DNA of 58,194 nucleotides from Lachnospiraceae bacterium (GTDB lineage: Bacteria; Bacillota; Clostridia; Lachnospirales; Lachnospiraceae). The stretch is from the NCBI GenBank assembly GCA_017625335.1, contig JAGALE010000231.1, forward strand, positions 1 to 58,194. The letters run 5' to 3'. Numbering within the stretch: the stretch's first letter is position 1; each line of letters opens with the position of its first letter. This document shows, piece by piece, positions 40,045 through 58,194 of this stretch. Position numbers and translations under genes: made by a program. The notes beneath the pieces are model-generated. The model was given only the letters and a program-made list of their open reading frames with translations. It was not told where the DNA came from and did not search any database.

Positions 40045-40083
40045 CGTGATTTATACGAAAATGATTTTGCCGTGGCATATACT
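40045..40083 (+). promoter_or_regulatory. CGT-N7-ACG palindrome + -10 box (copy 1)
   Basis: CGTGATTTATACG 40045-40057; TATACT 40078-40083. Confidence 0.6.
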
Positions 40084-40289
40084 ACGTTTGCAAGCAGGAA
40101 AACACGACACCGGTTAGGTGTATAGTGATGCAGTTAAAATTGTATTTTTCACAATGACAGAATCATAGAGACATACTTCCTGCCCAGTATACAGGGCAGC
40201 AAAGAATATGTATACAGCGACTAGCTGCGCTTTTGAAATCAGATAGGGTAACAACCACCAAGAGTTGAATAAAAAATAAATCATAGGAG

Positions 40290-40565
40290 GTGCATAATAT
40301 TAGCAATATAAAGTCAATTAACAAAGATGAGTTAGAGAAAAGAAAAGAGCTTTACAAAAGGCTTGTTATGGAAGATGGAGACATTACAGAATTAGAGCTG
40401 TCAATAAGGTCTCTTGTTTATCTTAAGAAAAATGGTATAAATACTGTATTTCAGCTCATGGAGCCTAATGAGAAGGAGGCATCGATCTTAAGAGGTATGA
40501 GCGAAAAGATGCTTAGGGAAATAAGTGATATTTTAGAGGACTTGAAAAAGGGTATTGAGGATTAA
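40290..40565 (+). CDS. Stand-alone RNA polymerase alpha-subunit C-terminal-domain protein
   Basis: ITELELSIRSLVYLKKNGINTVFQL...LRGMSEKMLREI matches the alpha-CTD HhH pattern (IEELELSVRS.NCLK..GI.T..L...GKKSL.EI). Confidence 0.8.
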   Translation: MHNISNIKSINKDELEKRKELYKRLVMEDGDITELELSIRSLVYLKKNGINTVFQLMEPNEKEASILRGMSEKMLREISDILEDLKKGIED

Positions 40566-40711
40566 CAAAATGCTAGGTATAATTTGCTTGTGGGCATATT
40601 ACTTAGATATTACAGAATTATGTGATGGGTGATTTAGTATATGAATAAGCAGAGTAATGTGTAGCTACAATCACACATTACTCTGTAAATTTTATGATTA
40701 GGAGAAGACAA

Positions 40712-43700
40712 ATGAAAAATGTATTGGTTAATCAGCTTTATGGGATTTTGTTAAACATACACAAGAAGCACGGAAAGGTACGTGCAGACAAATCAAAGGA
40801 GTTAATAGATGATTTAGAGATATACTATGCAGTGTGCAAATTTTTCACATTGGATGAAAGGGCCCTTAAGATTGTTATTAAAAAGCAGGAAATGTTAGAA
40901 GAGTATGAAATGCTTAAGAAAAGCGCTGTTAAGGTGTTTAGTGATAAGATTAATAAGTTTGCTGCTAATTTTGAGATGATGAAAAGGGCCATAGATGAAA
41001 GCTATACTAGCTTTGCATACTTGGTTAACAATATGGATGATAGTGATTATGATTTAGCAGATAATATTGAAGAGCTATCTGATAAATATAATTTTATGAC
41101 TATGAAGGATATAGAGGATTCGTTTGGCTTCGTAGGTACTAAGATAGGAGATGCAGCAGAAGAACTGTGTGCATTTATTAATAATCTTACTGATAGATTG
41201 AAAATGAGAGCTACCTTTGGTTCAGCCTGTAGGCGTAGGTTAAGATTACAGGCTGAAAAATCCGAGGCAGTAGCAAAGGAAAAGGAAAAAATACAAGAAG
41301 GAATTGATTTAAGAACCAGACTGATAGAGGAAAAGAATAGATTAAACCAGGAGTTAAAGAGCAAAATCAAGGGTCAGGATATGGCAGTTGAGAAATTCGT
41401 AGATAGCTATATTAGATTTATGACCCGAGGTAAGGAAAGTGGAAAGCCGGCATCGGTATGCTTATTTGCAGGACCTCCAGGAACAGGTAAAACATTTTTG
41501 GCTGAAACATTTTCCTCACTTATTATGGAAGAGGGATATGAGTATAAAAGATTTGATATGTCTGCCTACGGAAGTAATTCAGGAGATGCCATATCAGGAC
41601 TTGTGGGATTTGAGCCAACCTGGAGAGATTCTCAGCCGGGAATGTTAACAAATTTTGTGAAAAAGCATCCAAAGTGTGTGCTTCTTTTTGACGAGATAGA
41701 GAAGGCGAGTAATTCGGTAAGACTTTTATTTTTAAGTGTATTAGAAGGAGCTACTCTTAGAGACAGATTTTATGACGTATCTGTATCCTTTGAGAATGCC
41801 ATAATAATATTCACAACTAATGAAGGGGCGGAGCTATATAAGAATAATTATAACACCAATCTTACAGCTATGCCTGATTCTGCTGTACTTGATGGACTTA
41901 GCAACTCCAATTTCCCACCGGAGCTTCTATCTAGATTTGCAGCTGGAAATGTTATTATGTTTAATCATTTGGATTATATTAACAAGCTGGAGATATTTAA
42001 ATCAAATCTAGAGTACTCTATTGATAGATTACAGAAGAACAGTGTAAGCTTTGAGTTTGAGTATGATAAGGATGTGCTACCTAAGCTATATCTGTATAAC
42101 AAGGGTGGGCACACAGACGCAAGATTTATAAGCTCCAATGTACGTAAATATACAGAGGATGAGTATATTGCAGCATTGGAATACATATACAACACAGAAC
42201 AAAGTATGGAATCTCTTAAGAAGATAGCTATATCTGTGGATTTAAACGATGATATAAGAAAATATTTTGAGCTTACCCAAAATCCACGAATTTTGTGCTT
42301 TGCTAATTGCGAAAAGCTATCCTATCTAAATACCTTATCAAAGAAGGTGGAGGTAGATTGGGTAAATACTGTAGAGGAATTTGAGGAGAAGCTTGATAGC
42401 TGTAATTGGAATAGTAAAAGCTTAAAAGACAAATATAGTGTGGCATTAATAAGTATATATGAAAAGGATGAGACGGCTGAAAAATATATAGATACACAGG
42501 GCTATAAGGCCATGCTTTCTATAAAGTCAAGACATCTTCAGCTACCTATAATGATAGAGGAAAATGTATCTAGAAATAAAGAAAAGGCTATAGATGTAGA
42601 TACAAGAAAAAATCTAAGCATGCAGGGCGTTGCAGATTTTGTGGATATATATTCAAAGGATTTTGAGAAGACGCTTATCAAGTATGATTTCTTTAATAAA
42701 TCACATAGATTAGCTAAGGATGGTAAGATAATAACTGCAGATAAGACATATGATTATGATGAAAAAAATGGAGTACTTAAGCTGTGCTATACAAACCTTG
42801 CAATAGGTAAGGGTAAAGAGGATGGCTTGCGTGAAAGACTTTTAGACGAGACATATCTGCTTGATAAAAAGCCACAGGTTCGCCTAAAGGATATATTTGG
42901 AAATCGCTTAGCTAAGGAAGCCGTAAAACGTTGTATCGACAACATTAAGTATCCGGAAAAGTATTTTAAGGCAGGAGTAAAGCTGATAAAGGGAATACTT
43001 ATGTATGGAGCACCTGGTATGGGTAAAACTATGCTAGCTAAAGCCATAGCATTTGAGTCAGGAGCAGCATTTATATCCACAGTAGGCTCTGATTTTATTG
43101 GTGAGGAAGGTGTAAAGAAGCTGGCAGAAGTATTCGAGACAGCTAGGCGTAAGAAACCATGTGTTATATTCATAGATGAGTTTGATGCCATATCCAAAAG
43201 CCGAGGAGACAAGAGCAATAATGATAAGAACAACGGGGAGATGGTGCTGAATAAAATCCTTAAGGAAATGGATGGCTTGGAGACCAATAATAATGGTGTG
43301 TATGTAATCGGTGCAACCAATTATAATTTAGAGGATTTAGATGCGGCTGTGGTAAGAAGATTTAGCTCTAAGATTTTATTCCCATATCCTAACAAAGGAG
43401 AATGCTTAGAGTTTCTTGATTATATTATACATAAGAAGGGCTTAGATGAGGTTATATCACCTAGAGCAATAAAGACCCTTAATCTTATGATGTATGGTCA
43501 CATGACTAATTATTCTGATATAGAAACCTTTATAGAGGAGTCAATATCAGAAGCAGTTTATAGAGATGTTCCGGTTACGGAGAGATTTTTAATTAACCGT
43601 ATTCATGAGGTTACAGGAGGAATAGCTCGTAATGATGGGGACATAGACAAATTAAGAGGAACTTCCTATCATGAGGCTGGACACGCTGTATTGCAGTGGT

Positions 43701-44812
43701 ACTATGGAAGAAAGAATGAATATGTAACTGTAGTATCAAGAGGCAGCTATGGTGGATATGCTATGGCTAATTCTAATATATTTACCAAGAAGGAATTCTT
43801 AGAGCAAATTAGAATATCCTTAGCTGGGCGTATATGTGAGGTTATGCACTATGGTTTAGGGGATGAGTTTGATAATGAGGGAATAAATATTGGTGCTCAT
43901 TCAGATCTTAGAAAGGCAACAAGCTGTGCCTATGATTATGTATGTCGATTTGGCTTTGGCAATAGACTTGCTGTGCTTGCAGATAGAGGCGCTACAAGGA
44001 ACGGGTATCTTGAGGAAATCCTACCTGAAAATGAAAAGCAGGCTATCTGGGATGAAGTAAATAGTATTCTAAGAAGAGAATGGGATACTACAAGAGAGAT
44101 TTTAACAAAGCTGTGGAATAAGGTAGTTGCAATAGCTACATCTCTTATTTATATGAAGGAGCTGGATGGCGAAGCAATACAAAGGGTGTTGGAAACTGAA
44201 ATTCCAATATTGGAAGAAAGCTGCTTTGAAAACAATAACTACGATTATACCCAGATGTCATGGACTATAGATGGTGAGAAGTTTGTAGAATACTATCCAT
44301 ATGGTTATCCTATATATCCTCGTTCTATAATAAAGGCTGTAACTGATACAGAGAAAAATGATGACGCAAGTGATAAGACATATTATTATGCGGTAAAATC
44401 CAGAACGGGAGGATTAGGTATTTGGCAAAATTTAAAAGATGCTATAGCTGTTGCATATCAAAGAGGGGCTGCATGTAGACGATTTGAAAGCTTGGATGCG
44501 GCTAATGAATACTTAATGAGTCTTGAGCTAAGGGTATCATCAATTAATGGTAATCAGCTTGTAAAGCTAGAGGTTGATGCATTTGATAGTATACAGGAAA
44601 GTGTGTTCAATGCTACGGAGATAAAAATTCTTAAGGATGAGGACATAAATCAGTTAAGACAAGAGGCAGATAAAGAGTCCATTACCTTAGGAGAATATTT
44701 TGTCAAATATATGATTAAGAAAAAGCTAGTTTTGTCTGATAGTGATTTTGAGATGATTTACATTATCTATGATCAGGAGCTTAAGGACGTATTATTGGAA
44801 ATCTGGGGTTAG
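40712..44812 (+). CDS. Soluble fusion protease: Clp-type AAA+ / receiver-like / FtsH-type AAA+ / M41 Zn peptidase / viroplasmin-like domain (paralog 1)
   Basis: GQD..V, GPPGTGKT, LLFDEIEKA, FPPELLSRF; GAPGMGKT, IFIDEFD, GATN; HEAGH, LAGR..E, GAHSDL; no TM; start 40712 from RBS and alignment with paralog 2. Confidence 0.88.
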   Translation: MKNVLVNQLYGILLNIHKKHGKVRADKSKELIDDLEIYYAVCKFFTLDERALKIVIKKQEMLEEYEMLKKSAVKVFSDKINKFAANFEMMKRAIDESYTSFAYLVNNMDDSDYDLADNIEELSDKYNFMTMKDIEDSFGFVGTKIGDAAEELCAFINNLTDRLKMRATFGSACRRRLRLQAEKSEAVAKEKEKIQEGIDLRTRLIEEKNRLNQELKSKIKGQDMAVEKFVDSYIRFMTRGKESGKPASVCLFAGPPGTGKTFLAETFSSLIMEEGYEYKRFDMSAYGSNSGDAISGLVGFEPTWRDSQPGMLTNFVKKHPKCVLLFDEIEKASNSVRLLFLSVLEGATLRDRFYDVSVSFENAIIIFTTNEGAELYKNNYNTNLTAMPDSAVLDGLSNSNFPPELLSRFAAGNVIMFNHLDYINKLEIFKSNLEYSIDRLQKNSVSFEFEYDKDVLPKLYLYNKGGHTDARFISSNVRKYTEDEYIAALEYIYNTEQSMESLKKIAISVDLNDDIRKYFELTQNPRILCFANCEKLSYLNTLSKKVEVDWVNTVEEFEEKLDSCNWNSKSLKDKYSVALISIYEKDETAEKYIDTQGYKAMLSIKSRHLQLPIMIEENVSRNKEKAIDVDTRKNLSMQGVADFVDIYSKDFEKTLIKYDFFNKSHRLAKDGKIITADKTYDYDEKNGVLKLCYTNLAIGKGKEDGLRERLLDETYLLDKKPQVRLKDIFGNRLAKEAVKRCIDNIKYPEKYFKAGVKLIKGILMYGAPGMGKTMLAKAIAFESGAAFISTVGSDFIGEEGVKKLAEVFETARRKKPCVIFIDEFDAISKSRGDKSNNDKNNGEMVLNKILKEMDGLETNNNGVYVIGATNYNLEDLDAAVVRRFSSKILFPYPNKGECLEFLDYIIHKKGLDEVISPRAIKTLNLMMYGHMTNYSDIETFIEESISEAVYRDVPVTERFLINRIHEVTGGIARNDGDIDKLRGTSYHEAGHAVLQWYYGRKNEYVTVVSRGSYGGYAMANSNIFTKKEFLEQIRISLAGRICEVMHYGLGDEFDNEGINIGAHSDLRKATSCAYDYVCRFGFGNRLAVLADRGATRNGYLEEILPENEKQAIWDEVNSILRREWDTTREILTKLWNKVVAIATSLIYMKELDGEAIQRVLETEIPILEESCFENNNYDYTQMSWTIDGEKFVEYYPYGYPIYPRSIIKAVTDTEKNDDASDKTYYYAVKSRTGGLGIWQNLKDAIAVAYQRGAACRRFESLDAANEYLMSLELRVSSINGNQLVKLEVDAFDSIQESVFNATEIKILKDEDINQLRQEADKESITLGEYFVKYMIKKKLVLSDSDFEMIYIIYDQELKDVLLEIWG

Positions 44813-44828
44813 CCCCAGATTTCTTTTT
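44799..44828 (+). terminator. Intrinsic terminator overlapping the stop codon
   Basis: GAAATCTGGGG TTAG CCCCAGATTTC TTTTT. Confidence 0.85.
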
Positions 44829-44921
44829 GCGTAAACAATGAGCCAAGCGGATTACACGCTTGCATAGTAATCCATTTGGCGAATGTCAATCACTTAATAT
44901 GGGATGTGGCAAAGTATAGTC

Positions 44922-44960
44922 CGTGAAATTTACGAAAAATAATCACACTACCCTTACAAT
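44922..44960 (+). promoter_or_regulatory. CGT-N7-ACG palindrome + -10 box (copy 2)
   Basis: CGTGAAATTTACG 44922-44934; TACAAT 44955-44960. Confidence 0.6.
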
Positions 44961-45049: not shown

Positions 45050-45661
45050 ATGGCAAATTACGCAAAGGAATCAGCAAAGGGAATAGAGGTACTAACCTTA
45101 GAGGATGTACTTTATTCAAGCAGAGAAATTTTTATCACTGACGAGGTAAATGCCAGTACCTCAGTAAAGCTTATTAAGGAGCTTATGGTATTAGATAAGC
45201 TCAGTGATGAGGAGGTAACAATCTATATTAACTCTCCCGGAGGAGAGGTGATAAGTGGTATGGCTGTGTATGATGTTATACGTATGATGAGAGCACCGGT
45301 TAAAACGGTTTGTATAGGAACAGCGGCTAGTATGGGTGCCATGTTATTTCTTGCAGGTGACAAGAGAGAGATGCTGCCACATACCAGACTTATGATTCAT
45401 GATCCTGCCTTTGGAGGAGGTAATATGGCTGGTAAGAAGCCACACGAATTGCAGCAGTATGTAGAGAAGCTTAAGCAGACACAGGATATAATAGTAGATA
45501 TCATTGCTGAGAGAACAGGTAAGTCTAAGGAGGAGGTTAGAGATACAACTAAGGAGGATTCCTACTTTAATGTAGAGGAAGCAATGGAATATGGTCTTGC
45601 TACAGGCGTTTATGCTACGGCTAATAATACATTAGGTAATGAGAATTTAGTGCTTTTATAG
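45050..45661 (+). CDS. clpP: ClpP-family serine peptidase (accessory paralog)
   Basis: YINSPGG, AASMGA (Ser), MIHDP (His), EDSYF (Asp), EAMEYGL. Confidence 0.92.
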   Translation: MANYAKESAKGIEVLTLEDVLYSSREIFITDEVNASTSVKLIKELMVLDKLSDEEVTIYINSPGGEVISGMAVYDVIRMMRAPVKTVCIGTAASMGAMLFLAGDKREMLPHTRLMIHDPAFGGGNMAGKKPHELQQYVEKLKQTQDIIVDIIAERTGKSKEEVRDTTKEDSYFNVEEAMEYGLATGVYATANNTLGNENLVLL

Positions 45662-45715
45662 TAAGTGGTTGATGGTAGTCTAAGAAAATGGTACAATGTA
45701 CGCAATATATTATTT

Positions 45716-45753
45716 CGTAAAAAATACGAAAAATATGTTGCGTATATTAGTAT
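45716..45753 (+). promoter_or_regulatory. CGT-N7-ACG palindrome + -10-like box (copy 3, inside a larger inverted repeat 45699-45744)
   Basis: CGTAAAAAATACG 45716-45728; TAGTAT 45748-45753. Confidence 0.5.
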
Positions 45754-45805: not shown

Positions 45806-46837
45806 ATGAGTAAAAAGTATATGGATAATAAACTGGAATTAGAGTTTAAGATCAAGGAGTTTATGGACCATTTTACAGGACTTGATACACCATTAAAGGA
45901 GTATGTATGTGATGAGGATGGTAAGCTTTCGGAGGAGCAGGTGGATGAGCTTATTCATCAGATAATAAGTCATATGTACAATAATGATTGGTATTATGAA
46001 TATTATGGTATGAGTGGTGCTAAAAAGGTGTGCTTAGAGCAATTTTTATATCTCGCTATTACATCTTATAGCTATGTGGATAGAGTTGTAACATTTAGAG
46101 ATATATTAAATCTTTTGGACCCTAAGAACATGGGATATAGCAGCCTGTTTGAGCTCTATAAGCATGAGGTGGATGAGTATAGAAGTCGTCCCAATGGTTT
46201 CTTCGGCAGACTCCATGATAATTATATAGAACTGTCAGGTAGAACTATATTAGAGGATGTAGGGCAGCAGGAGAATGCCATTATAGATAAGGAACTTGAT
46301 GATAAGAACGGGTCGGAGCAGCATAAGGCACAGATGGAGGCTATCTATGATGAGTATAAGGATAGAGGTTGGGATCCTATATATGAATTAGGAGAAGATG
46401 GTATGCCACCGGATGAGGTGGTTTTCGATTATCCTGATGAAGTTATAAATGCGCCTGGTAAGCTTTATGAAAATAATGAAAGTGACGAGCTTTTATATGG
46501 TAATCCTCAGGATGTGATAGAAGAGCCTAGTACACCTAGGGTCTCAATTTTGAGAGGAGCAGAGGAATATAAGAAGAGACAGGAGAAGATGCAGGAAGAA
46601 AAGGCAGCCTTATTAGCAGCCTGGAAGGAGAGTATAAAAAATACAGATAGATTCTTAGAGTCATGTAGAGATTTTAGAAAGCTGTATTTTGTAGTTGGTA
46701 TTAATAAGAATGAATTAGAAGAAACCTTCATACATTTTTTACATGCTAATGGTAAGTGTAAGCTGGGCGATGATAATAAGGTTAATGAGCTATATGTGGC
46801 CTTGGCCAGAGCAAAAAGAGTGTCAGACCGTAGCTAA
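45806..46837 (+). CDS. Hypothetical acidic protein
   Basis: AAGGAGG RBS, 343-aa ORF, no recognised motif. Confidence 0.75.
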   Translation: MSKKYMDNKLELEFKIKEFMDHFTGLDTPLKEYVCDEDGKLSEEQVDELIHQIISHMYNNDWYYEYYGMSGAKKVCLEQFLYLAITSYSYVDRVVTFRDILNLLDPKNMGYSSLFELYKHEVDEYRSRPNGFFGRLHDNYIELSGRTILEDVGQQENAIIDKELDDKNGSEQHKAQMEAIYDEYKDRGWDPIYELGEDGMPPDEVVFDYPDEVINAPGKLYENNESDELLYGNPQDVIEEPSTPRVSILRGAEEYKKRQEKMQEEKAALLAAWKESIKNTDRFLESCRDFRKLYFVVGINKNELEETFIHFLHANGKCKLGDDNKVNELYVALARAKRVSDRS

Positions 46838-46852
46838 GCTGGAGGTGGAGAT

Positions 46853-47977
46853 ATGTTTAGAGAAGATTTCTATCGATGGCTAAGAGATGATTTTATAGTT
46901 AATAGGACCGCCCTTAATTCTGGTGGTTCATTCTTAGCAAAATACTTTGAGAAGCATTCCTATATGGTTCCGAAATATGATGATTTATGTAATTTGTTAG
47001 AGGGATTTAAAGCCGGAAAGCTTTCAAAGGATGACTTATATTATGTGGTTCACGATATATATAAAAGAGGGAAGCTACAGATATTTGAAAAAGTAAATTT
47101 AGATACAGATAAAAAAGAAGAGGGAGTGGTAAAAAGTGTAGATCCATTTAAGGCTGTGGATGAAGCAGATATATCAGATGCTCAGCTTATAGATTTAACG
47201 GGCAAGATTTTATCGGCTATGCTGGATGAAAAGGTTAAGGCATATCTGTATGATGTTGGATTTCCTGTTCCAAGAATGGTTGATGTGGGCAAAAAGTCTA
47301 ATGATGACTTGAATTCTTACATAAAGGAAATCGCTATTCCTAGAAAGAAGGAAGCAATACTTGATCTAATTGATGAGTTTTTGATGCATAATAATATATC
47401 CTTAAAGTTTAACGATTTGGGAAAAATTGTGTCAGAAAAAAAGGAAAATGATGAGGATAAAGCTTCCCTAAAATCAGCTGAGTTTAAAGAAGAAGCAAAG
47501 AGAGTATATGGGATAATACGTAATAGCAAGAGAACAGATATAATACTTCCTTTATATCAAAGTGGACTGTGTGGAATTTATATACTTGGAAGAGATGTGA
47601 TTAATTCAGAGGAGCTTATTAATAAAGGGGCGGAAAGACTGAAGAATAATCAGATCTTTAAGTCTAATATGAAAGTAGCAAGTAATAGAGAGCGAATTAT
47701 AGAGGACTATTATAACAAAACATCATATCTTTGCTTTGTGTATTCCGCTAGCTTTTGGGATACAGACACTGTTATAGAGAAAAGAGAAAAGGGCGACCTT
47801 TGGCCCCAAAGTAATCTACAGGCAGAGCTTGACATAACTGTGTGCTACAGTATAAAGGATGCAATAGCAACCTATGAGCTGAATTCGTACTGTGGTGATA
47901 TGGCATACGAAAGCTTTAATGGGCAGTTTATTCCTGAGCTAGGAGAGAAATATAAACAGTATTTTGAATGTGAGTAG
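46853..47977 (+). CDS. Hypothetical protein
   Basis: GGAGGTGGAG RBS, 374-aa ORF in an operon with the previous gene; terminator at 47988-48030. Confidence 0.75.
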   Translation: MFREDFYRWLRDDFIVNRTALNSGGSFLAKYFEKHSYMVPKYDDLCNLLEGFKAGKLSKDDLYYVVHDIYKRGKLQIFEKVNLDTDKKEEGVVKSVDPFKAVDEADISDAQLIDLTGKILSAMLDEKVKAYLYDVGFPVPRMVDVGKKSNDDLNSYIKEIAIPRKKEAILDLIDEFLMHNNISLKFNDLGKIVSEKKENDEDKASLKSAEFKEEAKRVYGIIRNSKRTDIILPLYQSGLCGIYILGRDVINSEELINKGAERLKNNQIFKSNMKVASNRERIIEDYYNKTSYLCFVYSASFWDTDTVIEKREKGDLWPQSNLQAELDITVCYSIKDAIATYELNSYCGDMAYESFNGQFIPELGEKYKQYFECE

Positions 47978-48087
47978 GGGAAAATTTAAACGACTACTGG
48001 AGTTTTACTCCATGTAGTCGTTTTTTGTTTTTAGCAAAAAAAGTTAAGTGGAGTACATGCTTTTAGGGAAATACATTTTACGAATGT

Positions 48088-48126
48088 CGTAAAAATCACG
48101 GAATAAAAATAGCCTCCCCTTATACT
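48088..48126 (+). promoter_or_regulatory. CGT-N7-ACG palindrome + -10 box (copy 4)
   Basis: CGTAAAAATCACG 48088-48100; TATACT 48121-48126. Confidence 0.6.
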
Positions 48127-48190: not shown

Positions 48191-48808
48191 ATGAGAAGAA
48201 GTCTTAATGACGTTTTGCGAGAAGCGAGAAAGGAGAGTATAAAAAATCCAAAGGATATTATGTCCTGCCTGGAAAAAATGGGAGCATTATCCTTGTATCA
48301 GCTTATGCTTAGTAGTGGCAATGTTAAACCGGATGACAAGCTTATGCATAATTATATATTAATGGGAGTAATAATCTCTTATGAAAAAATAATTGTCTTA
48401 AATGATTTTGAAATTGAAAGAGGGTTGAGACAGATAACTTTAAGAGATTTTTGCTGTATGTCGGATCATTTGGACAAGCATATAGATAAGAGCCTTACAG
48501 AGGGATTGTTAAGTGACTATAAGCATGGAAATTTATATGTTGTAGCTAATAAGAAGATAGGCAATATCATACAGGAGGCTAGTGAAAATGGCAATAAGAT
48601 AGCTAAGGATTTTTCTAGAATTAACACAGCAATATTAGATACCTTACTTAACTTGCCAGAGGAATATAATCCTGATTTTAATTATGGTAATAATAGGCTG
48701 ATGGACTATCTACAGGATGGTGGTATAGGGGGTGTATTTAAACTGTGTAAGGACTACAACATTAATAAGGCAATAGATAGATTTTTAGATTTAGCAATAG
48801 AAAAATAA
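48191..48808 (+). CDS. Hypothetical protein
   Basis: AGGAGG RBS, 205-aa ORF in an operon with the VirD4-like gene. Confidence 0.75.
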   Translation: MRRSLNDVLREARKESIKNPKDIMSCLEKMGALSLYQLMLSSGNVKPDDKLMHNYILMGVIISYEKIIVLNDFEIERGLRQITLRDFCCMSDHLDKHIDKSLTEGLLSDYKHGNLYVVANKKIGNIIQEASENGNKIAKDFSRINTAILDTLLNLPEEYNPDFNYGNNRLMDYLQDGGIGGVFKLCKDYNINKAIDRFLDLAIEK

Positions 48809-48821: not shown

Positions 48822-50069
48822 ATGAATAATATGTTTAAAAAGAATTATGGATATAGAAATATAGCGGGGGTGGTTGTAAGCAATGATACATTTGAAACAG
48901 GCTTGAATAACCATGATATGGTGTTAGCAAAGACAGGAGGGGGAAAGACGGGAATATATGTTAGTTCTTATATGGAAGAAGCCTTTGAGAGTCTTGTGGT
49001 GGTAGATACCAAGGGAATCTTGTATCGCATGTATAAGGAACATCTTCTTAGCCAGGGAATTAAGGTGAAGCTTATAGATATGGTTAAGCCTGAAAATTCT
49101 ACTTGTGGATTTAATCCATTGGCCTTTACCAAGGTGAGAGGTACCAGGGGGTATAGCCAGAAGGAGCTAAAGTCCGTTGTGGCAGCTTTAGTTCCTATGA
49201 GTTTAGATGAGAAGGATAAATACTGGGTATTATCTGCCAGAAAGTATCTCTATGCGATATGCTGTTATGTAATGGAATTTCTTGAGGCTAAGGATCAAAA
49301 TCTTGGTTCTGTTTTGGCAATACATAAGGAGTTTTGTTCAGACACTATGGACGAAATTTTTGAGAATGCCAGTACAAAAAAACCAGGCTCAGCCTTTGCA
49401 GGAGCATATAACCAGGTGAAGGGGTTAAAGGTATCTGATAAGACCTGGGCCTGTGTAATGGATTTTGCCAGTACAGCTCTTGACATTATGGATAGTGATG
49501 AGATGAAAATCATTTTTTCAAAGAAAAAGAATATAAGCTTTGAGGAGCTAGGGAGGGAAAAGACAGTTCTCTTTATTAATATTAGCGATATTGACCGATG
49601 CTTTGATGGCATAGTAAATCTGCTTTATCTACAGGGGATAAAATCCTTGGTGGAGTCCGCTGACGGCAATCCTGATGGAAGATTATATATGCCAGTCAGA
49701 TTTATATTTGATGATTTTGCCTGTGGCGCACCCATAGATAATTTTGACAATATAATAAGCGTGGTTCGTTCCCGTGATATATCATGCAGTCTTATAGTAC
49801 AGAGTTTGACTCAGCTTAATACAGTATATGGAACTGATAGAGCAACAACCATTATCAATGCCTGTGACCACCTACTTTATCTAAGTGGAAATGATGATGT
49901 AACCAAGGATTTTATTGCTTATAGATTAAATAAGCCAAGACATATAGTGGATAGACTTCCTAGTGACAAGGCCTATCTTCTTGAGGCTGGGTCAGCACCA
50001 AGACTTATATATAAGCCAAAGCCATATGCACTTTATAATAGGATTATGGCGGAGAAGGAGTTGCAGTAG
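48822..50069 (+). CDS. VirD4/TraG-like coupling ATPase lacking the N-terminal membrane anchor
   Basis: KTGGGKT Walker A, VVDTKG, FNPL, D.YW, FIFDDFA, RSRDIS...QSLTQL..VYG. Confidence 0.85.
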   Translation: MNNMFKKNYGYRNIAGVVVSNDTFETGLNNHDMVLAKTGGGKTGIYVSSYMEEAFESLVVVDTKGILYRMYKEHLLSQGIKVKLIDMVKPENSTCGFNPLAFTKVRGTRGYSQKELKSVVAALVPMSLDEKDKYWVLSARKYLYAICCYVMEFLEAKDQNLGSVLAIHKEFCSDTMDEIFENASTKKPGSAFAGAYNQVKGLKVSDKTWACVMDFASTALDIMDSDEMKIIFSKKKNISFEELGREKTVLFINISDIDRCFDGIVNLLYLQGIKSLVESADGNPDGRLYMPVRFIFDDFACGAPIDNFDNIISVVRSRDISCSLIVQSLTQLNTVYGTDRATTIINACDHLLYLSGNDDVTKDFIAYRLNKPRHIVDRLPSDKAYLLEAGSAPRLIYKPKPYALYNRIMAEKELQ

Positions 50070-50152: not shown

Positions 50153-53100
50153 ATGGATAAGATAACATATAAGCTATCCCCTTCAAGCTGTGTGGAGCAG
50201 TATTTTAGTCATCTCTGTGAGAGATTTCTTCTATACCAGGGTATCAAGTCAGGAAGTGCAAAGGCACTAGGCTTTGAGAATCCTCAGGGTACAGGAAGTG
50301 AGATTGCTGCATTAGCAGGTGAGGCATGGGAAGAGAAGCTGGCGAGAAAGCTTATAAAAGACGATAGCTTGATATATACCTTAGATAAAAAGACTGGTGG
50401 TTTTGCTAAGTTTAATACTGAGGAAACTATTAGTAAGCTTGTAGAGATGGTTGAATCAGTTAAAGGTGATAAAAAAACCAGATACCTATACCAGGCAAGT
50501 CTTAAGGTGACTGATAATTTTATAAAAGATTATTTTAGATTTGACAAAAGCTTGTATGATGGAACCTTTGAAGGTCTTCAGGTTGTTTTTTCCAGGACAC
50601 ATCCGGATCTTATAAGAGCAAGCGTTGATGAAGAGAAAAATCAAGTAGTACTATCTATAGTAGATATGAAGCTTGCCAAGAAGATGAAGGTGGAGCATAA
50701 GGTTCAGGTTACCTTATATGTGAAGCTGCTTGGTTATCTTGTGAAAGAATATAATGATGAAGCTTCTAATAATAAGCTACAGGCTGTAGTAGATACTAGC
50801 TACGGATATCTGTGGAACTATGGCCAAGAGCAGGAGACAGGTTTTTCCTTGCAGGAGACAGAGCCTTTATTAGAGGATTTTTTCCAGGATGTATTTCCTA
50901 GAGTTATAAATAAGCTAAAGGTAGCTATTGAAGCAGATGATAAGGAACAGCTACAACAAGTCATAGACACACAGATAATGGGTAACTGTGAATGGTGCGA
51001 AAATTATGGTCAGTGTACCAAAAGGCTTAAAACCGAAGGTAATGTGGCATTGCTACCTTACCTTTCAAGCTATGCCCAAGAGTATGCCAAGAGACTAAAT
51101 ATGCCAAAGGGTATAAGTGAATTTGTAGAGGAGATTGAAAGACCGGAGATTTCAGAAGCTCTATCAGCTAACAGAAGCTGGAGTCGTATTCTAAAGGACA
51201 AATCACTATTAGAGATACACCAGGATGCAGTACCATATACATACGATGATATGAAAAACGCAGGCTATAAATGGAAGGGTATGCGTTCTTTTGTTATGCC
51301 TAATTGGCAGAACATAGCTATTATTATCACAGCATAAAAGGATGTTGCAACGGGCAGAGTTTATGGATTAGGATATTACATAGGCTTGCGCAGAGAGGAT
51401 TTGGATTTACAGGAGCGAGTGAGACTTAATATAGCTACTGATATGAGTGAGGAAGCTTATGTTGATAATGCTATAACCTTTGTACGAAACTTGTACGGAA
51501 TGCTTAGTAATGTGGCTAACCAAAATGCTCGGGGGAGAAGAGATTCCCTACAGGGCTATGTTATGGATACCTATGAATATAACAATCTAGAGGAAATGCT
51601 ATATGATTTATTAGATAATCCTCTTACGCCTCAAGAGGATATGGAAAAGGTCATGGGGCTTTTGTTCTGGATGCAGGGAGAAAGATTGGTTACTGATAGT
51701 AATGCTCAGCCACATCAGGTAAGTGTAGCTCCGTTAATTGTTATTTCAAGAGAGATTAGAAAGCTTTTATCTCTTCCTATACCTATAGCATATAATCTTC
51801 GTAATATACAAAATACTTATAATGCCTGGGTTAACGAAGGGGACTTCTTCGGTAAGGAGGATACAGAATATTTTGGTCGAATAACAGATATGCTTCCGCC
51901 GGATAAAATACATGAGATTTGGAAGATAGAAGGTGAGGATCAAGTTAGTATAGATGCTAGAAATGCTTTGTTGGATAAGCTTAATAAGCATCTTACTAAG
52001 AGACTTCGCATAGAGGCGGCTATATTATACAAGCTACAGCAGGAGGATAGATCAAGGGCTAGAAATGAAGAAGAAAAATATCTTACAGGACGCCTGGATC
52101 AATTTACCCTTCCTGATGCAAACAATTCAAATAATCCTCTTATTAGAAAGTGGTTGTTTGAGACAAAATATGAGGAGCTACTTTCTTATAGCAGAATAAG
52201 AGGCTTAAGACAGCAGGAGCTTAATGTGGCTATAGAGTCAGGAGATATTCTTAAGCTTAGGGTGGATGATGTTATAGTTGAAAATGTATACAATGACTAT
52301 TGGCAATGTGATGAAGAACAAACCACCCTGGTATTCAACGTGGAAAATGCTGACAAGTATAAAAATGGTGAACCATGGTTTTCAGGACTTTTGTGCAAGG
52401 ATACACCTGAGGCCTTAAGGCAGATGTATAGCTTTGCAGATTGGAGTAATACAAGATTTCCGGGACCTAGCTATGAAAATTACACCGTTCTTAATTTTAT
52501 GGAATTTAAGAGGGTTGATGGACAGGTATTGCTACAAGGTAAGCTGCCTAATAGTAGCCAGTTTACAGTAAGGGTGGGGGAGACCCTATACCTGTCAGAG
52601 AGATACGCAGACTTTAATAGTGGCAAGGTTATTAATAATCTAAACAATATGGATAACGGAAATCACAGAGAGCTTTTAGAACCAGAGACTATTCTTAGAG
52701 AAATTAATAACCCTCATGCTGTAAATGATATAGAAAAAGCAATTGAATACAGTAAACAGATAGACGAATTTAAATTTACTGACTCACAGGAGAATGCATT
52801 TAGACATCTTGCCAAGTATAATCTTACTGTATTGCAGGGACCTCCGGGAACGGGGAAGACAGATTTTATAGCCAGGGCGGTTATAAGCCTGTGCAGATAT
52901 TTTAAGAGGGAAAAGGATTATAATCTTAGAGTGTTAATCTCTGCTAATTCTCATGCAGCTATAGAAAATGCTATTTACGCCATAGGCACTAAGCTTGGTG
53001 AAGGACAGGATATAGCATTGCTTAAGGCATCCAGATTTTCTCATGATCCAAATATAAGAACATATCGAGGTGTTAATAAGGTTGAGGAAAAGGATGTAGA

Positions 53101-54253
53101 AGCTACGTGCACCAGAGAAGCAAGGCTGGTGGTTGTAGGCGCAACTAGCTGGTCCTGCGATAAGATGAGAAATCTCTCCAGACCATTTGACCTTATTATC
53201 ATAGATGAGGCATCTCAGGTTAGGGTTATGGATGCTATGATAACCCTGTGCAAAGGTAGTGTTAATACGAGTAGGTATCTGTTGGTTGGTGATGATGACC
53301 AGCTACCACCAATCATACAGGGTAAATATACCAAGGAGCCTGACATTCCTTATGTGTATGGTTCTGTATTCAGATATTTTAGAGATCCAGGAATGCTATA
53401 TGATTTAGGTTACTGTATGATGCTGGAGGAAAATTTCAGAATGAATGACATATTATCCAGATATTCAGCAGAAAAAATATATGGGGAAAAGTACAAAGCC
53501 TTTAATCAGGCTATTGCCTCAAGACACCTTGAGTATCATCAGTCAGCTAGGCAGCATCTTCGTGATATGTCTGATGACACAAGAAATTATATAGAATATG
53601 TGTTAGATAATTTGAACTATAATAAAGATGATTATTGGCCACTTGTATTCTGTCATATAAAGGGTGGAAATGCTAAGGCACAGATAGAGGTGGAAAGATA
53701 CCTGGTGGCTGAGCTTACCAATATACTTAAGGAAGGTATTGGACATGGCCAGACATCTGACTGGTTCTGGAATGGAGATAATAGCACCGATGGTGCATAT
53801 GGTATTATATCACCTCATCATAGGCATATAGAAAAGCTAAAGGATTCCATAGCCACAAGAACCGGTATGGACAGAGAAGAGCTTTTTGTAGGAACTGTTG
53901 ATAAATTGCAGGGACAGCAGAGAGAGGCTATAGTAGTAAGCTACGGTATCTCTGACTTAGAGGATGCGGTGGTTGAGGGAGAATTTGTCTACAACCGAAA
54001 TCGATTAAATGTTTCTCTTACCAGAGCAAAATGTAAGACCATAGTATTTTTATCAGATGTACTTACCAAGATGCCTATAGAGCTTCTTTCCTCTGATGAT
54101 GAGGACTTACAAAAGGGAGCGGAATACGTATGTGGTTTCCTGTCATTTATGCAAAAAAACGAGGATGATAGTGAGACAAGTAATAGAGAGTTTACATTTA
54201 ATATTGAGGGGCAGGAGGTAACTGTAGAGGTTTACCGAAAGCGCCTGGTGTAA
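50153..54253 (+). pseudogene. Cas4/Dna2-like Fe-S PD-(D/E)XK nuclease fused to an SF1B (Upf1/Dna2-like) helicase, interrupted by one in-frame TAA at 51335-51337
   Basis: Both track ORFs are in the same frame and the gap is open (KDVATGRVYGLGYYIG); nuclease LCER, HPDL, VDMK, QVTLY, CEWCENYGQC; helicase GPPGTGKT, DEASQ, GDDDQLPP, TVDKLQGQQ, RLNVSLTRAK. Confidence 0.85.
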
Positions 54254-54278
54254 TAAATCACAAAGGAAGGTATAAGCT

Positions 54279-57200
54279 ATGAATAATGAATTGGCCAAGT
54301 TATTGTATGACATAATCAATGATTATCATAAAAGATATGGGCAGTCAAAGTACGATGAAGTAGAATGGGTTGACTATACTGTTATATTTTATGGACTATG
54401 TACATTCTTTTCAATGGATAAGGACGAGGTTATAACTAAAATTAAGACTCCTGCTATGGTTGAGGAATACTATGTGACAAAAAATGCGGTGGCAAGAAAA
54501 TTTGCAGATGGATTCAAAAAAAATAACTTTGATATGGATGAGATGAACAAGTTTCTCCACAAGTATTTTGGGATAGTTTATAACTCAGTAAAGAAAGAGG
54601 AGGAAATAGAGGAAGAGCCTAATCTTTTCTTTTCAATAGATGATATAACAATTATGTTTACTGAGGTTGAAAGTAGAGACGGCTGCGCTTATGAATACAT
54701 ATTAAAGATAGCAAGTTTATGTGTTTCAAAGCTTAAGGATTACTTACCTTACAGGTATATTATTGAGTCTTATAAGGATGTTATAGTCAGTGAGGTACAA
54801 CCCTATGAAAAAGCAAAAGAAAAATGCACTGCTTCAACAACAAAAACAATATCGGAGATAAGAACCTATCTAAAGGAAAACCTAAGAGAAAAAATCAAGG
54901 GGCAGGATATAGCTATTGATAAATTCGTGGATAGCTATATACGCTATAAGGTTAGAGGTGCTGAGCCTGGAAAACCGGCTGCGGTCAGCTTGTTTGCAGG
55001 ACCTCCGGGAACAGGTAAAACCTATCTTGCAGAAACCTTCACTAAGCTTCTTAAGGAAGAGGGCTACGCATATAAGAGATTTGATATGTCTGCCTACGGT
55101 GGAGATGGAGCTGATAACGTAACTGGTCTTGTTGGATTTGAGTCTACCTGGAAGGCAGCAGTTCCGGGACAGCTTACAGATTTTGTGAGACGAAATCCAA
55201 AATGTGTATTGTTATTTGATGAGATAGAAAAGGCCGGGAAGCAGGTTAGATTACTGTTCCTTAGTGTGTTAGAGGGTGCAGTGCTTAGAGATAGATATTA
55301 TGATTCTCAGATTTCTTTTGAGGATGCAATCATAATATTTACAACCAATGAAGGAAAGGAATTATATGAAGACAACTATAAAGCAAACCTTTCGGCTATG
55401 AACGATATGGTTGTAATAGATGCATTGAAGGATTCAGAATTCCCACCAGAGCTTCTTTCAAGATTCGCGGCAGGTAATGTGATTATGTTCAATCATCTTA
55501 ACTTTAGTCATATGATGGGAATCTTTAATGTTAATTTAGCTGATGCCATAAAAAAGCTTCAGAATGCAAATGCGGATTTTCAGTTTAAGTATGATGAGAA
55601 ATTGTTGCCAAAGCTATATCTGTTTAACAAAGCCGGTCAGGTGGATGCCAGATTTGTAAGTGCAAATGTAAAAAGATATGCGGAGGAACAGTACATTAAG
55701 CTTGTTGAGGTTGCCCAAAGTAAGGGAACTGATATAAACAGCATAAAGAAAATATCTGTGGCAGTGGATGTAGGAGATACTGTAAAGGAATATTTTAAGC
55801 AGAAGGAAAAGCCTAGAATACTTTGCTGCGATAACGGCGACACCCTTATGCATAAGAAAGAAATCCAGAAGTATGCCAAGGTGGAATGGGCTAAAAATGT
55901 AGATGAGCTAAGGGAAAAGCTTGATAGCTGCAATTGGAACAGTGATGACAGTAAGGATAAGTACCAGGCATTTATAATCAATCTTTTTGGACAAGATGAT
56001 AGCAATAAAAGCTATGTGGATACAGAGGGGTACAGATGCTTACTACATATAGAAAATGAATGCTTAGATGTACCTATGCTTGTAGAGGATAATATCTCTG
56101 ATGCAGACGCAATGAAGCTTGATCTGATTTCTAAGAATGCACTAAGACATCATGGGGTAACAGATTTTGTAGACGTATGTTCTAATGAGCTAAAGGAAGT
56201 ATTTGACAGATATCATTTTGTAAATAAGATTACTGAGCTTTCAGATAATAATAAGAGAATGAGTGCTGATATAAGCTATGAATATATTCCTAAGAATAAG
56301 GAGATGAAGCTAACATATGTTAATCCCCACATAGAAAAGGCAACGGAGGAATTAGCTGCAGATAGAAGCATGAACAAGAGATATCTGCTTGATAAAAAGC
56401 CAAAGGTTAGTCTTAAGGATATATTTGGTAATAAGCTTGCTAAAGAGGCGGTAAAGCGTTGTATAGATAATATTAAGCATCCGGAGAAATATACAGCTGT
56501 AGGGGCAAAGCTTATGAAGGGCATTCTTATGTATGGAGCCCCTGGTATGGGTAAAACTATGTTCGCAAAGGCCATGGCCTATGAGTCAGGTGCAGAGTTT
56601 ATATCCACCGTTGGTGCAGATTTTATGAAGGATAACGGTGTAGACAAGGTAGAGGAGATATTCAAAACTGCTCGCCGTAAAAAGCCTTGTATAATCTTCA
56701 TAGATGAGTTTGATGCTATATCTAAGCTGAGAGGACACATCTCCAATTATGAAGAAAAGGTTTTGGAAAAATTCCTAAAGGAGATGGATGGTTTAGAGAC
56801 TGATAATGATGGTGTGTATGTGGTAGGAGCCACAAATTATGATTTGGAAGGCTTAGATCCAGCTATTACAAGACGTTTTAGCTCTAAGATATATTTCCCA
56901 TATCCTAGCAAGGAGGAGCGTCTTCAGTTTATCTTACACATTCTTAAGAAAAAGGGCTTAGAGGGTGTTATATCAGAGAAGAAGGCTAAAACCTTAAATC
57001 TAATGATGTATGGAAGAATGAATAACTATGCGGAGATAGAAACCTTCTTCGAGGAATCCATTGCAGAGGCCGTATATAAGGGAATAGCAGTAAGTGAAAA
57101 ATTCCTTTTTAATCGTATTCATAATGATACTGATGGAGAGGCACGAAGCGAGGAAAATATAGAGAGATTAACTGCTGTTGCATTTCACGAGGCAGGACAT

Positions 57201-58194
57201 GCTGTTCTTCAGTGGCATTATGGACGTAAGAATGAATACGTTACCATTGTTTCAAGAGGTGGTTACGGAGGATATGCTATGGCTGATTCAAAGCTTCGCA
57301 CCAAGAAGGAGTTTTTGGAGCAGATAAGAATATCTATGGCAGGTAGAGCAGCAGAGCTTCTTCGTTTAAGTGGAAATAAAGATCAGGACGATAGTGAAAT
57401 CCTAGATACAGGAGCATATAGTGATTTGCAAAAGGCAACAAGCTATGCCTATCAGTGTGTGGCTCGCTATGGTTTTAGAACTAGATTTACTGTTGTCCCA
57501 AGCTGGCTTGCTGAAGAGAAGGGAAAATATCCTGAGGATGTTCTGTCTGACGAAGAAAAGAAAAAGATCTGGAGCGAGGTTGAGGATATTCTAAAACGGG
57601 AATGGGAGAATACCAAGGCTAACATAAGAGAGCTATTTGAGTTGGTGAAGGTGGTTGCAATATCTCTTATATACCTAAAGGAGTTAGATGGAGAAGCTAT
57701 TGAGAAGATAATTACATCCAAGGTTCCCCTTGTCGATGAAAGCTGCTTTGAGGATATAGATTTCGACTATGCAACTAGTGTTTTTGAGTGCAATGATGAT
57801 GATGAAACACAATGCTCATACGGCTTTCCAATATACCCTCGTTCTGTTATCAAGGTCAATAATTATGAGAATGACATCTATGATATAGGAGAGAAAAAAT
57901 ACTATTATGCTGTGAAGAGCGCAAAGGAAAGCTTTGGAATGTATGAGGATATAAGAGAGGCTCTTGAGGTAGCATATGTAAATGGGGCTTCATGCAGACG
58001 TTTTATAAGAAAGACAGCTGCTAAGGAATATCTTGATATGTTAGAACTGAGAGTATGTATTGAAAACGGAGAAAGCTCAGTGGGCTTTAAGGTAGATGCA
58101 ATGGATGAGATAAAGGAGCTTCATCAGGTGGATTATGAGGTAAGAGTACTTAAGAAGGAGAATGTACTTGCACTTAAAAAGTCAGCTGCTAACA
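54279..58194 (+). CDS. Soluble Clp-AAA / FtsH-AAA / M41 peptidase fusion, paralog 2 (runs off the window end; missing from the ORF track)
   Basis: ATG 54279 after AAAGGAAGG; hand translation MNNELAKLLYDII..., GPPGTGKT at 54999, GAPGMGKT, HEAGH at 57186, YYYAVK at 57900, all in one frame. Confidence 0.9.
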   Translation, partial: MNNELAKLLYDIINDYHKRYGQSKYDEVEWVDYTVIFYGLCTFFSMDKDEVITKIKTPAMVEEYYVTKNAVARKFADGFKKNNFDMDEMNKFLHKYFGIVYNSVKKEEEIEEEPNLFFSIDDITIMFTEVESRDGCAYEYILKIASLCVSKLKDYLPYRYIIESYKDVIVSEVQPYEKAKEKCTASTTKTISEIRTYLKENLREKIKGQDIAIDKFVDSYIRYKVRGAEPGKPAAVSLFAGPPGTGKTYLAETFTKLLKEEGYAYKRFDMSAYGGDGADNVTGLVGFESTWKAAVPGQLTDFVRRNPKCVLLFDEIEKAGKQVRLLFLSVLEGAVLRDRYYDSQISFEDAIIIFTTNEGKELYEDNYKANLSAMNDMVVIDALKDSEFPPELLSRFAAGNVIMFNHLNFSHMMGIFNVNLADAIKKLQNANADFQFKYDEKLLPKLYLFNKAGQVDARFVSANVKRYAEEQYIKLVEVAQSKGTDINSIKKISVAVDVGDTVKEYFKQKEKPRILCCDNGDTLMHKKEIQKYAKVEWAKNVDELREKLDSCNWNSDDSKDKYQAFIINLFGQDDSNKSYVDTEGYRCLLHIENECLDVPMLVEDNISDADAMKLDLISKNALRHHGVTDFVDVCSNELKEVFDRYHFVNKITELSDNNKRMSADISYEYIPKNKEMKLTYVNPHIEKATEELAADRSMNKRYLLDKKPKVSLKDIFGNKLAKEAVKRCIDNIKHPEKYTAVGAKLMKGILMYGAPGMGKTMFAKAMAYESGAEFISTVGADFMKDNGVDKVEEIFKTARRKKPCIIFIDEFDAISKLRGHISNYEEKVLEKFLKEMDGLETDNDGVYVVGATNYDLEGLDPAITRRFSSKIYFPYPSKEERLQFILHILKKKGLEGVISEKKAKTLNLMMYGRMNNYAEIETFFEESIAEAVYKGIAVSEKFLFNRIHNDTDGEARSEENIERLTAVAFHEAGHAVLQWHYGRKNEYVTIVSRGGYGGYAMADSKLRTKKEFLEQIRISMAGRAAELLRLSGNKDQDDSEILDTGAYSDLQKATSYAYQCVARYGFRTRFTVVPSWLAEEKGKYPEDVLSDEEKKKIWSEVEDILKREWENTKANIRELFELVKVVAISLIYLKELDGEAIEKIITSKVPLVDESCFEDIDFDYATSVFECNDDDETQCSYGFPIYPRSVIKVNNYENDIYDIGEKKYYYAVKSAKESFGMYEDIREALEVAYVNGASCRRFIRKTAAKEYLDMLELRVCIENGESSVGFKVDAMDEIKELHQVDYEVRVLKKENVLALKKSAAN

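What the first reader, a model, noticed from the sequence alone, without database searches (positions are those of the whole stretch)
40045..58194. Candidate undescribed co-regulated proteolysis/nuclease system: twin Clp-FtsH fusion proteases, ClpP, soluble VirD4-like ATPase, Dna2/Cas4-like nuclease-helicase and alpha-CTD
Seen: from 40.0 kb every gene is on the + strand and none is housekeeping. The locus holds a stand-alone alpha-CTD, a ~1,370-aa double-AAA zinc protease, ClpP, three unknown proteins, a TM-less VirD4-like ATPase, a nuclease-helicase and, 25 bp after it, a second copy of the giant protease. No integrase, relaxase, VirB4 or phage structural gene is visible. Known: pairing ATPases and proteases with nuclease-helicase effectors is a recurring layout of anti-phage and stress-response systems. 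Inference: this is an inducible defence or damage-response module in which nucleic-acid sensing triggers proteolysis and/or DNA degradation. I do not recognise it as a named system.
Basis: partly seen in the sequence, partly recalled or inferred. Interest (0 to 1): 0.85.

Follow-up and report, generated by a model that had tools for sequence, protein, structure and literature searches.

The report
ClpP paired with anchorless conjugation ATPase
This gut-bacterial island is a mosaic built around a tightly linked gene pair, a private ClpP protease and a membrane-free relative of the conjugation coupling ATPase, which likely form an inducible protein-destroying defence machine, with the giant fusion proteases and the nuclease-helicase as optional cargo.

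Summary
All genes are real and intact. The 'TAA' in the nuclease-helicase is an assembly error (C in 4 of 4 runs). The ten genes are not one conserved system. The conserved core is clpP plus a soluble VirD4-like ATPase with a DDF Walker B. Anchored on the ATPase, ClpP lies within 1.5 kb in 24 of 25 loci from 21 genera; 0 of 52 other coupling-protein loci have it. u1-u2 are frequent accessories. U1 is naturally fused to the ATPase in two proteins and weakly resembles the coupling-protein substrate-binding domain. The Clp-D2/receiver/FtsH-M41 proteases and the Dna2-like helicase are variable cargo: 1 of 18 protease loci carries the core, and a sister species has only the core at this site. Co-regulation has sequence support: a palindrome TTYCGY-N7-RCGRAA, 16-17 nt before a -10 box, precedes four genes, an arrangement like WYL-activator promoters. 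No secretion system was found nearby. Best model: an inducible, substrate-selecting proteolysis module used in anti-invader or damage response. Physical coupling and phenotype are untested. I found no paper on it; earlier scan notes flagged both halves.

The parts
40042..40083 (+). Palindromic box TTTCGT-N7-ACGAAA, 17 nt, then -10-like TATACT; precedes the alpha-CTD gene
40290..40565 (+). Stand-alone RNA polymerase alpha-CTD (91 aa); variable cargo
   Evidence: PF03118 E 6e-10; an alpha-CTD fusion also lies near the core in L093
40599..40640 (+). Degenerate copy of the box (3 mismatches) plus TAGTAT upstream of protease 1; the leader resembles the u1 leader of L093
   Evidence: read by eye
40694..44812 (+). 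Soluble fusion protease 1: helical N-domain, Clp-D2-type AAA+, receiver-like domain (acceptor Asp replaced by Ser), FtsH-type AAA+, M41 (HEAGH), RNase H1 hybrid-binding-like domain, C-domain; optional cargo
44797..44834 (+). Intrinsic-terminator-like hairpin separating protease 1 from clpP
44919..44960 (+). Box (1 mismatch), 17 nt, TACAAT upstream of clpP
45050..45661 (+). Private ClpP (core); Ser94 and His117 invariant in 32 clade members, third triad residue Asp166 present; 31-35% identical to the four other full-length ClpPs of the assembly
45713..45753 (+). Box (perfect), 16 nt, TAGTAT upstream of u1
45806..46837 (+). U1, all-helical accessory; family of 366 clusters; fused to the VirD4-like ATPase in P0330 and P0405; weakly like the coupling-protein all-alpha domain
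46853..47977 (+). U2, unknown; follows U1 in all 8 loci where it was found
48085..48126 (+). Box (1 mismatch), 17 nt, TATACT upstream of u3-virD4
48191..48808 (+). U3, unknown; found only in same-genus loci
48822..50069 (+). Soluble VirD4/TraG-like ATPase (core); intact Walker A, DDF in place of DEF in Walker B, no membrane anchor
50153..54253 (+). One 1366-aa Dna2/Cas4-like nuclease-helicase: four conserved Cys, PD-(D/E)XK and QxxxY motifs, SF1B helicase; TAA at 51335-51337 is an assembly error; optional cargo
54279..58194 (+). Fusion protease 2 (1350 aa in full-length P0004), cut by the contig end; catalytic motifs intact; receiver acceptor position Asn

Best explanation
The island is a mosaic whose conserved core is a private ClpP gene beside a membrane-free VirD4-like ATPase gene, and the two proteins likely act as an inducible substrate-selecting protease in which the ATPase, helped by U1, would capture chosen proteins and deliver them to ClpP during phage or DNA stress. 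Shown: gene content, intact motifs, tight reciprocal linkage, U1 fusions, a shared promoter box, and no secretion genes found nearby. Inferred: (1) a dimeric activator, perhaps a ssDNA-sensing WYL-type protein encoded elsewhere, binds the box over the -35 position and switches on four or five promoters; (2) the ATPase forms a soluble ring and recruits proteins through its all-alpha domain, with U1 as a detachable specificity adaptor; (3) ClpP degrades them (invader proteins, or host antitoxins/repressors that hold neighbouring toxins in check). The DDF Walker B suggests slow hydrolysis, so a nucleotide-gated adaptor is as likely as a true unfoldase. The fusion proteases are self-contained ATP-dependent zinc proteases recruited to the same hotspot; protease 1 probably shares the regulon, while helicase plus protease 2 form a separate unit without the box.
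For: ClpP-anchored: VirD4-like gene in 14 of 14 loci from 11 of 58 genus genomes. ATPase-anchored: ClpP within 1.5 kb in 24 of 25 loci from 21 of 400 family genomes, one per genus, and in 2 of 2 short-clade loci fetched from other families. Controls: 0 of 25 other PF02534 loci and 0 of 27 long canonical loci. Gap at most 197 bp in 31 of 33 loci. Pairwise distances co-vary (Mantel rho 0.74, 0 of 2000 permutations; kin not independent) and the ClpP tree mixes genera. Of the best 120 homologues, 118 have DDF and 1 has a TM-like segment; median 417 aa. No VirB4 or relaxase among 131+137 neighbours scanned; no CD1110-type VirB4 in 5 of 5 carriers, one a single-contig genome. TMD-less coupling-protein mutants are mostly dead in conjugation (PMC7431656, passages), and the all-alpha domain binds protein substrates (PMC8740702, abstract). 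U1-ATPase fusions; the only 3 of 50 structural hits aligning over 100 residues are coupling proteins. Box followed by a -10 hexamer at 16-17 nt in 12 of 12 sites examined; 4 of the 8 genome-wide sites with at most 1 mismatch plus -10 lie in the island, including both perfect ones. DriD sites have this geometry (PMC13004042, passages). 4 of 5 family genomes with the fusion protease also carry the ATPase, on other contigs (P about 3e-5, confounded by kinship and habitat).
Against: No conserved IGF-type ClpP-docking motif in the ATPase, U1, the C-termini of 166 neighbouring or core proteins (5 scattered hits), or the protease D2 loop. The U1/all-alpha-domain match is weak (Z 5.8, rmsd 5.2; hhalign probability 7%; Foldseek nothing). 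The Glu-to-Asp Walker B may cripple hydrolysis (own knowledge). Many core loci sit among housekeeping genes with no defence neighbour, and no background rate was computed. The box was found only in the close subclade (window, L006, L093, L094, L150, L230), not in most core loci. No WYL gene lies on a module contig in the four carriers where contigs could be matched, or on the window's contig, and the box sequence differs from DriD and DdaA sites (PMC12392091, passages). The box pattern was chosen from these sites. No expression or phenotype data.
Confidence: 0.45

Rival explanations
1. ClpP regulates the ATPase module rather than being fed by it: the ATPase (with U1/U2) is a soluble DNA translocase or toxic effector like HerA-type defence ATPases, and ClpP, driven by host ClpX/ClpC, activates it or removes it or its inhibitor.
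For: Same linkage data; no docking motif found; a ClpX-like AAA_2 gene lies two genes from clpP in L104; TrwB/Cag-beta are the closest solved relatives.
Against: No nuclease or toxin is a constant partner among 34 loci; a private, fast-evolving ClpP is kept although the assembly has four other ClpPs.
Confidence: 0.25
2. The pair belongs to a minimal mobile or mobilisable element: the soluble coupling protein hijacks or jams a co-resident conjugation machine and ClpP processes transfer proteins; the rest is cargo.
For: Patchy, genus-crossing distribution; serine recombinase, ArdC, RepL, DnaB-like and Bro-N genes near some loci; closest family is CD1115-type VirD4 (228 bits, cut-off 250).
Against: No relaxase or VirB4 among scanned neighbours; none of the CD1110 VirB4 type in 5 carriers and no PF03432 relaxase in 3 of 5 (other relaxase families not searched); best plasmid and phage matches are under 30% identical; same chromosomal site in three species.
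Confidence: 0.15
3. One reading: all ten genes act as one nucleic-acid-triggered proteolysis/nuclease system.
For: Whole island present in 4 of 4 runs from 4 studies, one possibly the source; L006 has protease-virD4-clpP-u1-u2 behind one box; helicase directly followed by the protease in L117; genome-level co-occurrence; hybrid-binding-like domain on the protease.
Against: Core without protease or helicase in the great majority of loci, including the same site in G019; helicase in 0 of 400 family genomes and with clpP/virD4 in 0 of 11 loci, 6 of them under 10 kb; terminator after protease 1 and no box before the helicase.
Confidence: 0.1
4. A general stress-proteostasis cassette (like heat-tolerance islands) with no role against invaders.
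For: Three proteases; many loci lie in metabolic or housekeeping context.
Against: No chaperone partners among scanned neighbours; rapid divergence and shuffled gene order.
Confidence: 0.05

Closest known systems
VirD4/TrwB/Cag-beta type IV coupling proteins (CD1115 family, NF045973)
   Same: PF02534/PF12696/PF10412 hits, Walker A, all-alpha domain region; Cag-beta is the best PDB sequence match (E 3.5e-14).
   Different: No membrane anchor, about 417 aa, DDF Walker B, ClpP neighbour, no T4SS or relaxase found nearby.
ClpXP / ClpAP / ClpCP
   Same: ClpP with intact catalytic residues next to a P-loop ATPase.
   Different: The partner is a VirD4/TrwB-type ATPase, not an Hsp100 AAA+; no IGF-type loop found.
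FtsH (M41; TIGR01241)
   Same: C-terminal half: AAA+, HEXXH, third ligand; structural match to FtsH chains Z 20-25.
   Different: No membrane anchor; extra Clp-D2 AAA+, receiver-like domain and hybrid-binding-like domain; 245 bits against a cut-off of 600.
Dna2 / Sen1 / Upf1 SF1B helicases; Mokosh MkoA
   Same: SF1B helicase; Dna2 among the best PDB matches (E 1e-22); N-terminal PD-(D/E)XK motif with four Cys.
   Different: PADLOC hits cover only the helicase part; no MkoB-type partner; small family of 17 clusters.
Dodola (DolB), Iet (IetA), PDC-M37
   Same: Partial AAA+ hits from the fusion protease (E 1e-18 to 1e-40).
   Different: Single-domain matches only; no partner genes (DolA, IetS) hit among the 12 island proteins scanned.
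WYL activators DriD, DdaA, PafBC (promoter layout only)
   Same: Palindrome over the -35 position at fixed distance from -10 (PMC13004042 passages); DdaA controls damage and defence genes (PMC12392091 passages).
   Different: Different sequence; no WYL gene in the island; binding protein unidentified.

Membership tests
Type IV coupling protein of a T4SS/ICE | VirD4-type nucleotide-binding domain | tested here: met
Type IV coupling protein of a T4SS/ICE | N-terminal transmembrane anchor | tested here: not met
   max hydropathy 1.11; 1 of 120 homologues TM-like
Type IV coupling protein of a T4SS/ICE | Walker B with catalytic Glu (DE) | tested here: not met
   DDF in 118 of 120; D297 and D298 invariant in 32
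Type IV coupling protein of a T4SS/ICE | Linked VirB4 and relaxase | tested here: not met
   none among 268 neighbours scanned; CD1110 VirB4 0 of 5 genomes; window ends at a contig end, so its right flank is unseen
ClpP peptidase | Ser-His-Asp triad | tested here: met
ClpXP/ClpAP/ClpCP-type complex | Hsp100 partner with IGF-type docking loop | tested here: not met
   no conserved motif in protease D2 module, ATPase, U1 or neighbour C-termini
ClpXP/ClpAP/ClpCP-type complex | ATP-dependent degradation by the complex | not testable with these tools
   needs biochemistry
FtsH (M41) | AAA+ followed by HEXXH M41 domain | tested here: met
FtsH (M41) | N-terminal membrane anchor, single AAA+ module | tested here: not met
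   max hydropathy 1.22; two AAA+ modules
Dna2/Cas4-like nuclease-helicase | PD-(D/E)XK nuclease with four Fe-S cysteines plus SF1B helicase in one chain | tested here: met
   motifs read from the 17-sequence alignment; helicase matches Dna2; no Pfam hit to the nuclease part
Named PADLOC defence systems (Dodola, Iet, Mokosh, PDC-M37) | All component genes with full-length profile hits | tested here: not met
   partial AAA/helicase hits only; PADLOC-DB 2.0.0 of 2023; DefenseFinder not available
Coupling-protein all-alpha domain (for U1) | Significant structural or profile match | tested here: inconclusive
   Z 5.8, rmsd 5.2, 126 aligned; hhalign 7%
WYL-activator regulon | Palindrome over -35 at fixed distance from -10 | tested here: met
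   12 of 12 sites
WYL-activator regulon | Cognate WYL protein binds the box; ssDNA induction | not testable with these tools
   five WYL genes elsewhere in the genome, none assignable

The most novel reading that the evidence does not exclude
A conjugation coupling ATPase has been repurposed as the substrate-selecting motor of a ClpP protease, a non-AAA+ partner for ClpP, with detachable all-alpha-domain adaptors (U1) setting specificity, switched on by a ssDNA-sensing activator and reinforced by soluble two-motor FtsH-type proteases and a Dna2-like nuclease: a new class of inducible proteolytic immunity in gut Clostridia.
Probability: 0.25. Interest if true: 0.9.

Novelty: categorically new. 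Interest (0 to 1): 0.7.

Why it matters
The ATP-driven partners of ClpP that I know of are all Hsp100 AAA+ proteins (own knowledge). A coupling-protein ring feeding or gating ClpP would be a new protease architecture and would show how a secretion substrate receptor can be rewired to destruction. The pair is small (two genes), occurs in at least 21 Lachnospiraceae genera and two other families, and is directly testable in vitro. The promoter box gives a handle on the inducing signal in poorly studied rumen and gut Clostridia. The finding also corrects an apparent pseudogene and separates a real conserved unit from island cargo.

Tried and rejected
Complex prediction of two ClpP plus the ATPase gave no verdict (score 0.00); not used either way. 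No RNA holder listed among runs. Helicase pseudogene: rejected. ICE/IME backbone: not supported; the PF12846 search (0 of 5) is probably too insensitive to count. Prophage: helicase motif 0 in viral contigs; ClpP hits phage maturation proteases only generically; U1-U3 no PHROG. Genome-wide SOS-type regulon for the box: other top hits were within genes or beside unrelated genes; the lexA leader is cut off by a contig end. Generic promoter scan at chance level (67 vs 66). ESM Atlas: nothing usable for U1 or U2. Foldseek on U1: no match at E 0.001. First hybrid-binding-domain comparison (99%) was circular; redone without shared rows it gave 84%, E 7.5e-6, with column shuffles at most 1.6%. The genome-contig scan used generic motifs and covered 1 of 64 parts; 67 of its 79 loci matched only the FtsH-like half and were not used. 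A single family for the small helical ORFs upstream of clpP was not established. Literature searches for the system (listings only) and passage searches in PMC12839542, PMC12419801 and PMC12084326 found no description; the library lacks most subscription papers and supplements were not read.


Full report
Setting. The window is the whole of contig C181 of a 3.63-Mb, 92%-complete assembly. It holds the replication-origin region (dnaA, dnaN, recF, gyrB, gyrA). Its relatives are Lachnospiraceae and its DNA occurs in sheep, cattle and other gut metagenomes. The island starts after a kinase gene and runs off the contig end.

Observation. The gene list is correct. Both giant proteins have intact Walker A/B motifs in both AAA+ modules and HEAGH plus the third zinc ligand. 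An AlphaFold model of residues 500-1372 (pLDDT 85) matches FtsH over the AAA+/M41 part. The linker is receiver-like (hhalign 97% against the genome's own receiver domains); the acceptor Asp is kept in 33 of 41 aligned homologues but is Ser and Asn in the two window copies. A segment after M41 resembles the RNase H1 hybrid-binding domain (84%, E 7.5e-6). The helicase ORFs are one gene: position 51335 reads C in 4 of 4 runs including the probable source, and 17 full-length homologues conserve PD-(D/E)XK, QxxxY and four cysteines (motif names recalled).

The ten genes do not travel together. The fusion protease family is large (429 proteins at E 1e-50 among 7996 candidates) and patchy: 2 of 36 genus and 5 of 400 family genomes (few candidates scored per genome, so a floor). 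Of 18 protease loci with flanks, 1 (L006) has clpP, virD4, u1 and u2. Others sit beside YbjN genes (5), Ser/Thr kinases (4), TIR, DUF4011 helicase or RNase H genes, or alone. The helicase was found in 0 of 400 family genomes. Of 11 metagenome loci, one has the protease directly behind it and one a protease fragment 2.7 kb away; none has clpP or virD4, though 6 are under 10 kb. At the same chromosomal site, G019 has clpP-u1-u2-u3-virD4 only, and G473 has a different AAA+ gene before u1-u2-u3. Within the window's species the whole island is covered in 4 runs of 4 studies, one possibly the source.

The real core. The island-type ClpP occurs in 11 of 58 genus genomes, and all 14 loci have a VirD4-like gene. 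The reverse search found the ATPase in 21 of 400 family genomes, with ClpP within 1.5 kb in 24 of 25 loci. It extends to two other families (2 of 2 loci fetched). Controls were 0 of 25 and 0 of 27 other coupling-protein loci (their longer N-termini shorten the upstream flank examined). The ATPase clade has at least 230 clusters, lacks an anchor and has DDF for DEF. The two proteins diverge in step and their ClpP tree mixes genera, as expected for a pair moved horizontally as a unit. No VirB4 or relaxase appeared among 268 neighbours scanned, and five carriers lack a CD1110-type VirB4. Anchor-less mutants of MobB, TrwB and PcfC do not support transfer (PMC7431656, passages). U1 and U2 accompany the core as a pair in 8 loci and U1 alone in 2, counting the window among 36. 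U1 has 366 clusters and is fused to the ATPase in two proteins. Its confident all-helical model (pLDDT 85) ranks Cag-beta first among 48,161 chains, and its only long alignments are to three coupling-protein chains, but at Z 3.9-5.8, below the tool's trust line; the profile match to ATPase residues 99-174 is weak. All-alpha domains bind protein substrates in Xanthomonas VirD4 (PMC8740702, abstract).

Regulation. A palindrome TTYCGY-N7-RCGRAA lies upstream of the alpha-CTD gene, clpP, u1 and u3, with a degenerate copy before protease 1 (read by eye). In all 12 sites examined, in five genomes, a -10-type hexamer follows at 16-17 nt, so the right arm fills the -35 position. Four of the 8 genome-wide sites with at most one mismatch plus -10 are in the island. 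The WYL activator DriD binds a palindrome over the -35 position and contacts an alpha-CTD (PMC13004042, passages); DdaA links such control to anti-phage genes (PMC12392091, passages). The binder here is unknown: no WYL gene lies on the contig, a repressor or the sigma-like gene of L094 are alternatives, and the box is confined to the close subclade. The free alpha-CTD could be a feedback decoy (inference). The helicase has an extended -10 and no box, and a terminator follows protease 1.

Function. Defence- or toxin-antitoxin-type genes lie in the scanned flanks of about 13 of 34 core loci by my reading (MazF and ShosT/DprA, PDC-M45, HerA, RelB/ParE, RelA/SpoT, CRISPR I-B, Schlafen helicase, McrBC, methylase, MNT-HEPN, CARF-nuclease-like), with no matched background. 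Six of seven protease-bearing genomes sampled also carry the core elsewhere (confounded by kinship and habitat). I commit to an inducible substrate-selecting protease (0.45). Against it, no IGF-type docking motif was found, the Walker B is degenerate, and there is no biochemical or phenotype evidence.

Novelty. No full match to a PADLOC system. Seven literature searches (listings) and three passage searches found no description; subscription papers and supplements were not seen. Earlier notes of this scan already flag an anchor-less VirD4 with ClpP and the fusion protease family; these are unchecked and not independent support. Their Lon-like and FtsK-like partners were not seen in my loci. 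What this window adds is the reciprocal count with controls, the U1 fusions, the promoter box, the meeting of both modules under one box in L006, and the removal of the false stop.

Verdict. Observation largely right, single-system reading wrong in scope, a smaller undescribed machine real at the level of gene linkage. Interest 0.70.

Noticed in passing
window 38882-39972: Ser/Thr-kinase-like gene appears frameshifted, but all 4 runs have one extra base near 39194; intact 363-aa form in L093. It marks the insertion site in three species.
   Followed up: yes
window 35756-37468: SpoVK/CbbX-type AAA+ ATPase with a long unknown N-terminus just upstream of the island; a related AAA+ sits behind the box in L230, and a SpoVK-type AAA+/M41 fusion adjoins the protease in L087.
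   Followed up: partly
window 13477-15941: Rpn-type nuclease/transposase gene beside mnmE, both on + between - strand mnmG and jag; possibly a local inversion near the origin.
   Followed up: no
window 32439-34193 and 29785-31533: Two ~580-aa ORFs; the first has no family hit, the second a weak DUF4153 hit.
   Followed up: partly
L010, L012, L014, L089, L091: YbjN-type genes flank the fusion protease in 5 of 18 loci.
   Followed up: no
L092:6436-12719: Fusion protease flanked by two RNase H1 N-domain genes, one with an RNase H domain; several homologues carry the same domain.
   Followed up: partly
L097, L098, L101, L102: Two soluble VirD4-like genes flank one clpP, with small helical ORFs between.
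   Followed up: partly
window 39973-40289 and 40566-40711 versus L093 14320-14572 and 10055-10223: Leader sequences containing the box are reused in front of different genes in sister species, suggesting cassette shuffling at the leaders.
   Followed up: partly
G000 contigs C306/C344 and C255/C454: Two divergent copies of ribosomal-protein operon genes and of housekeeping clpP, consistent with some contamination of the assembly.
   Followed up: no
L005:9526-14134: Close-clade protease, split in two ORFs, downstream of rumA with T5orf172 and ORF6N genes and what looks like a recombinase remnant (recalled resemblance).
   Followed up: no
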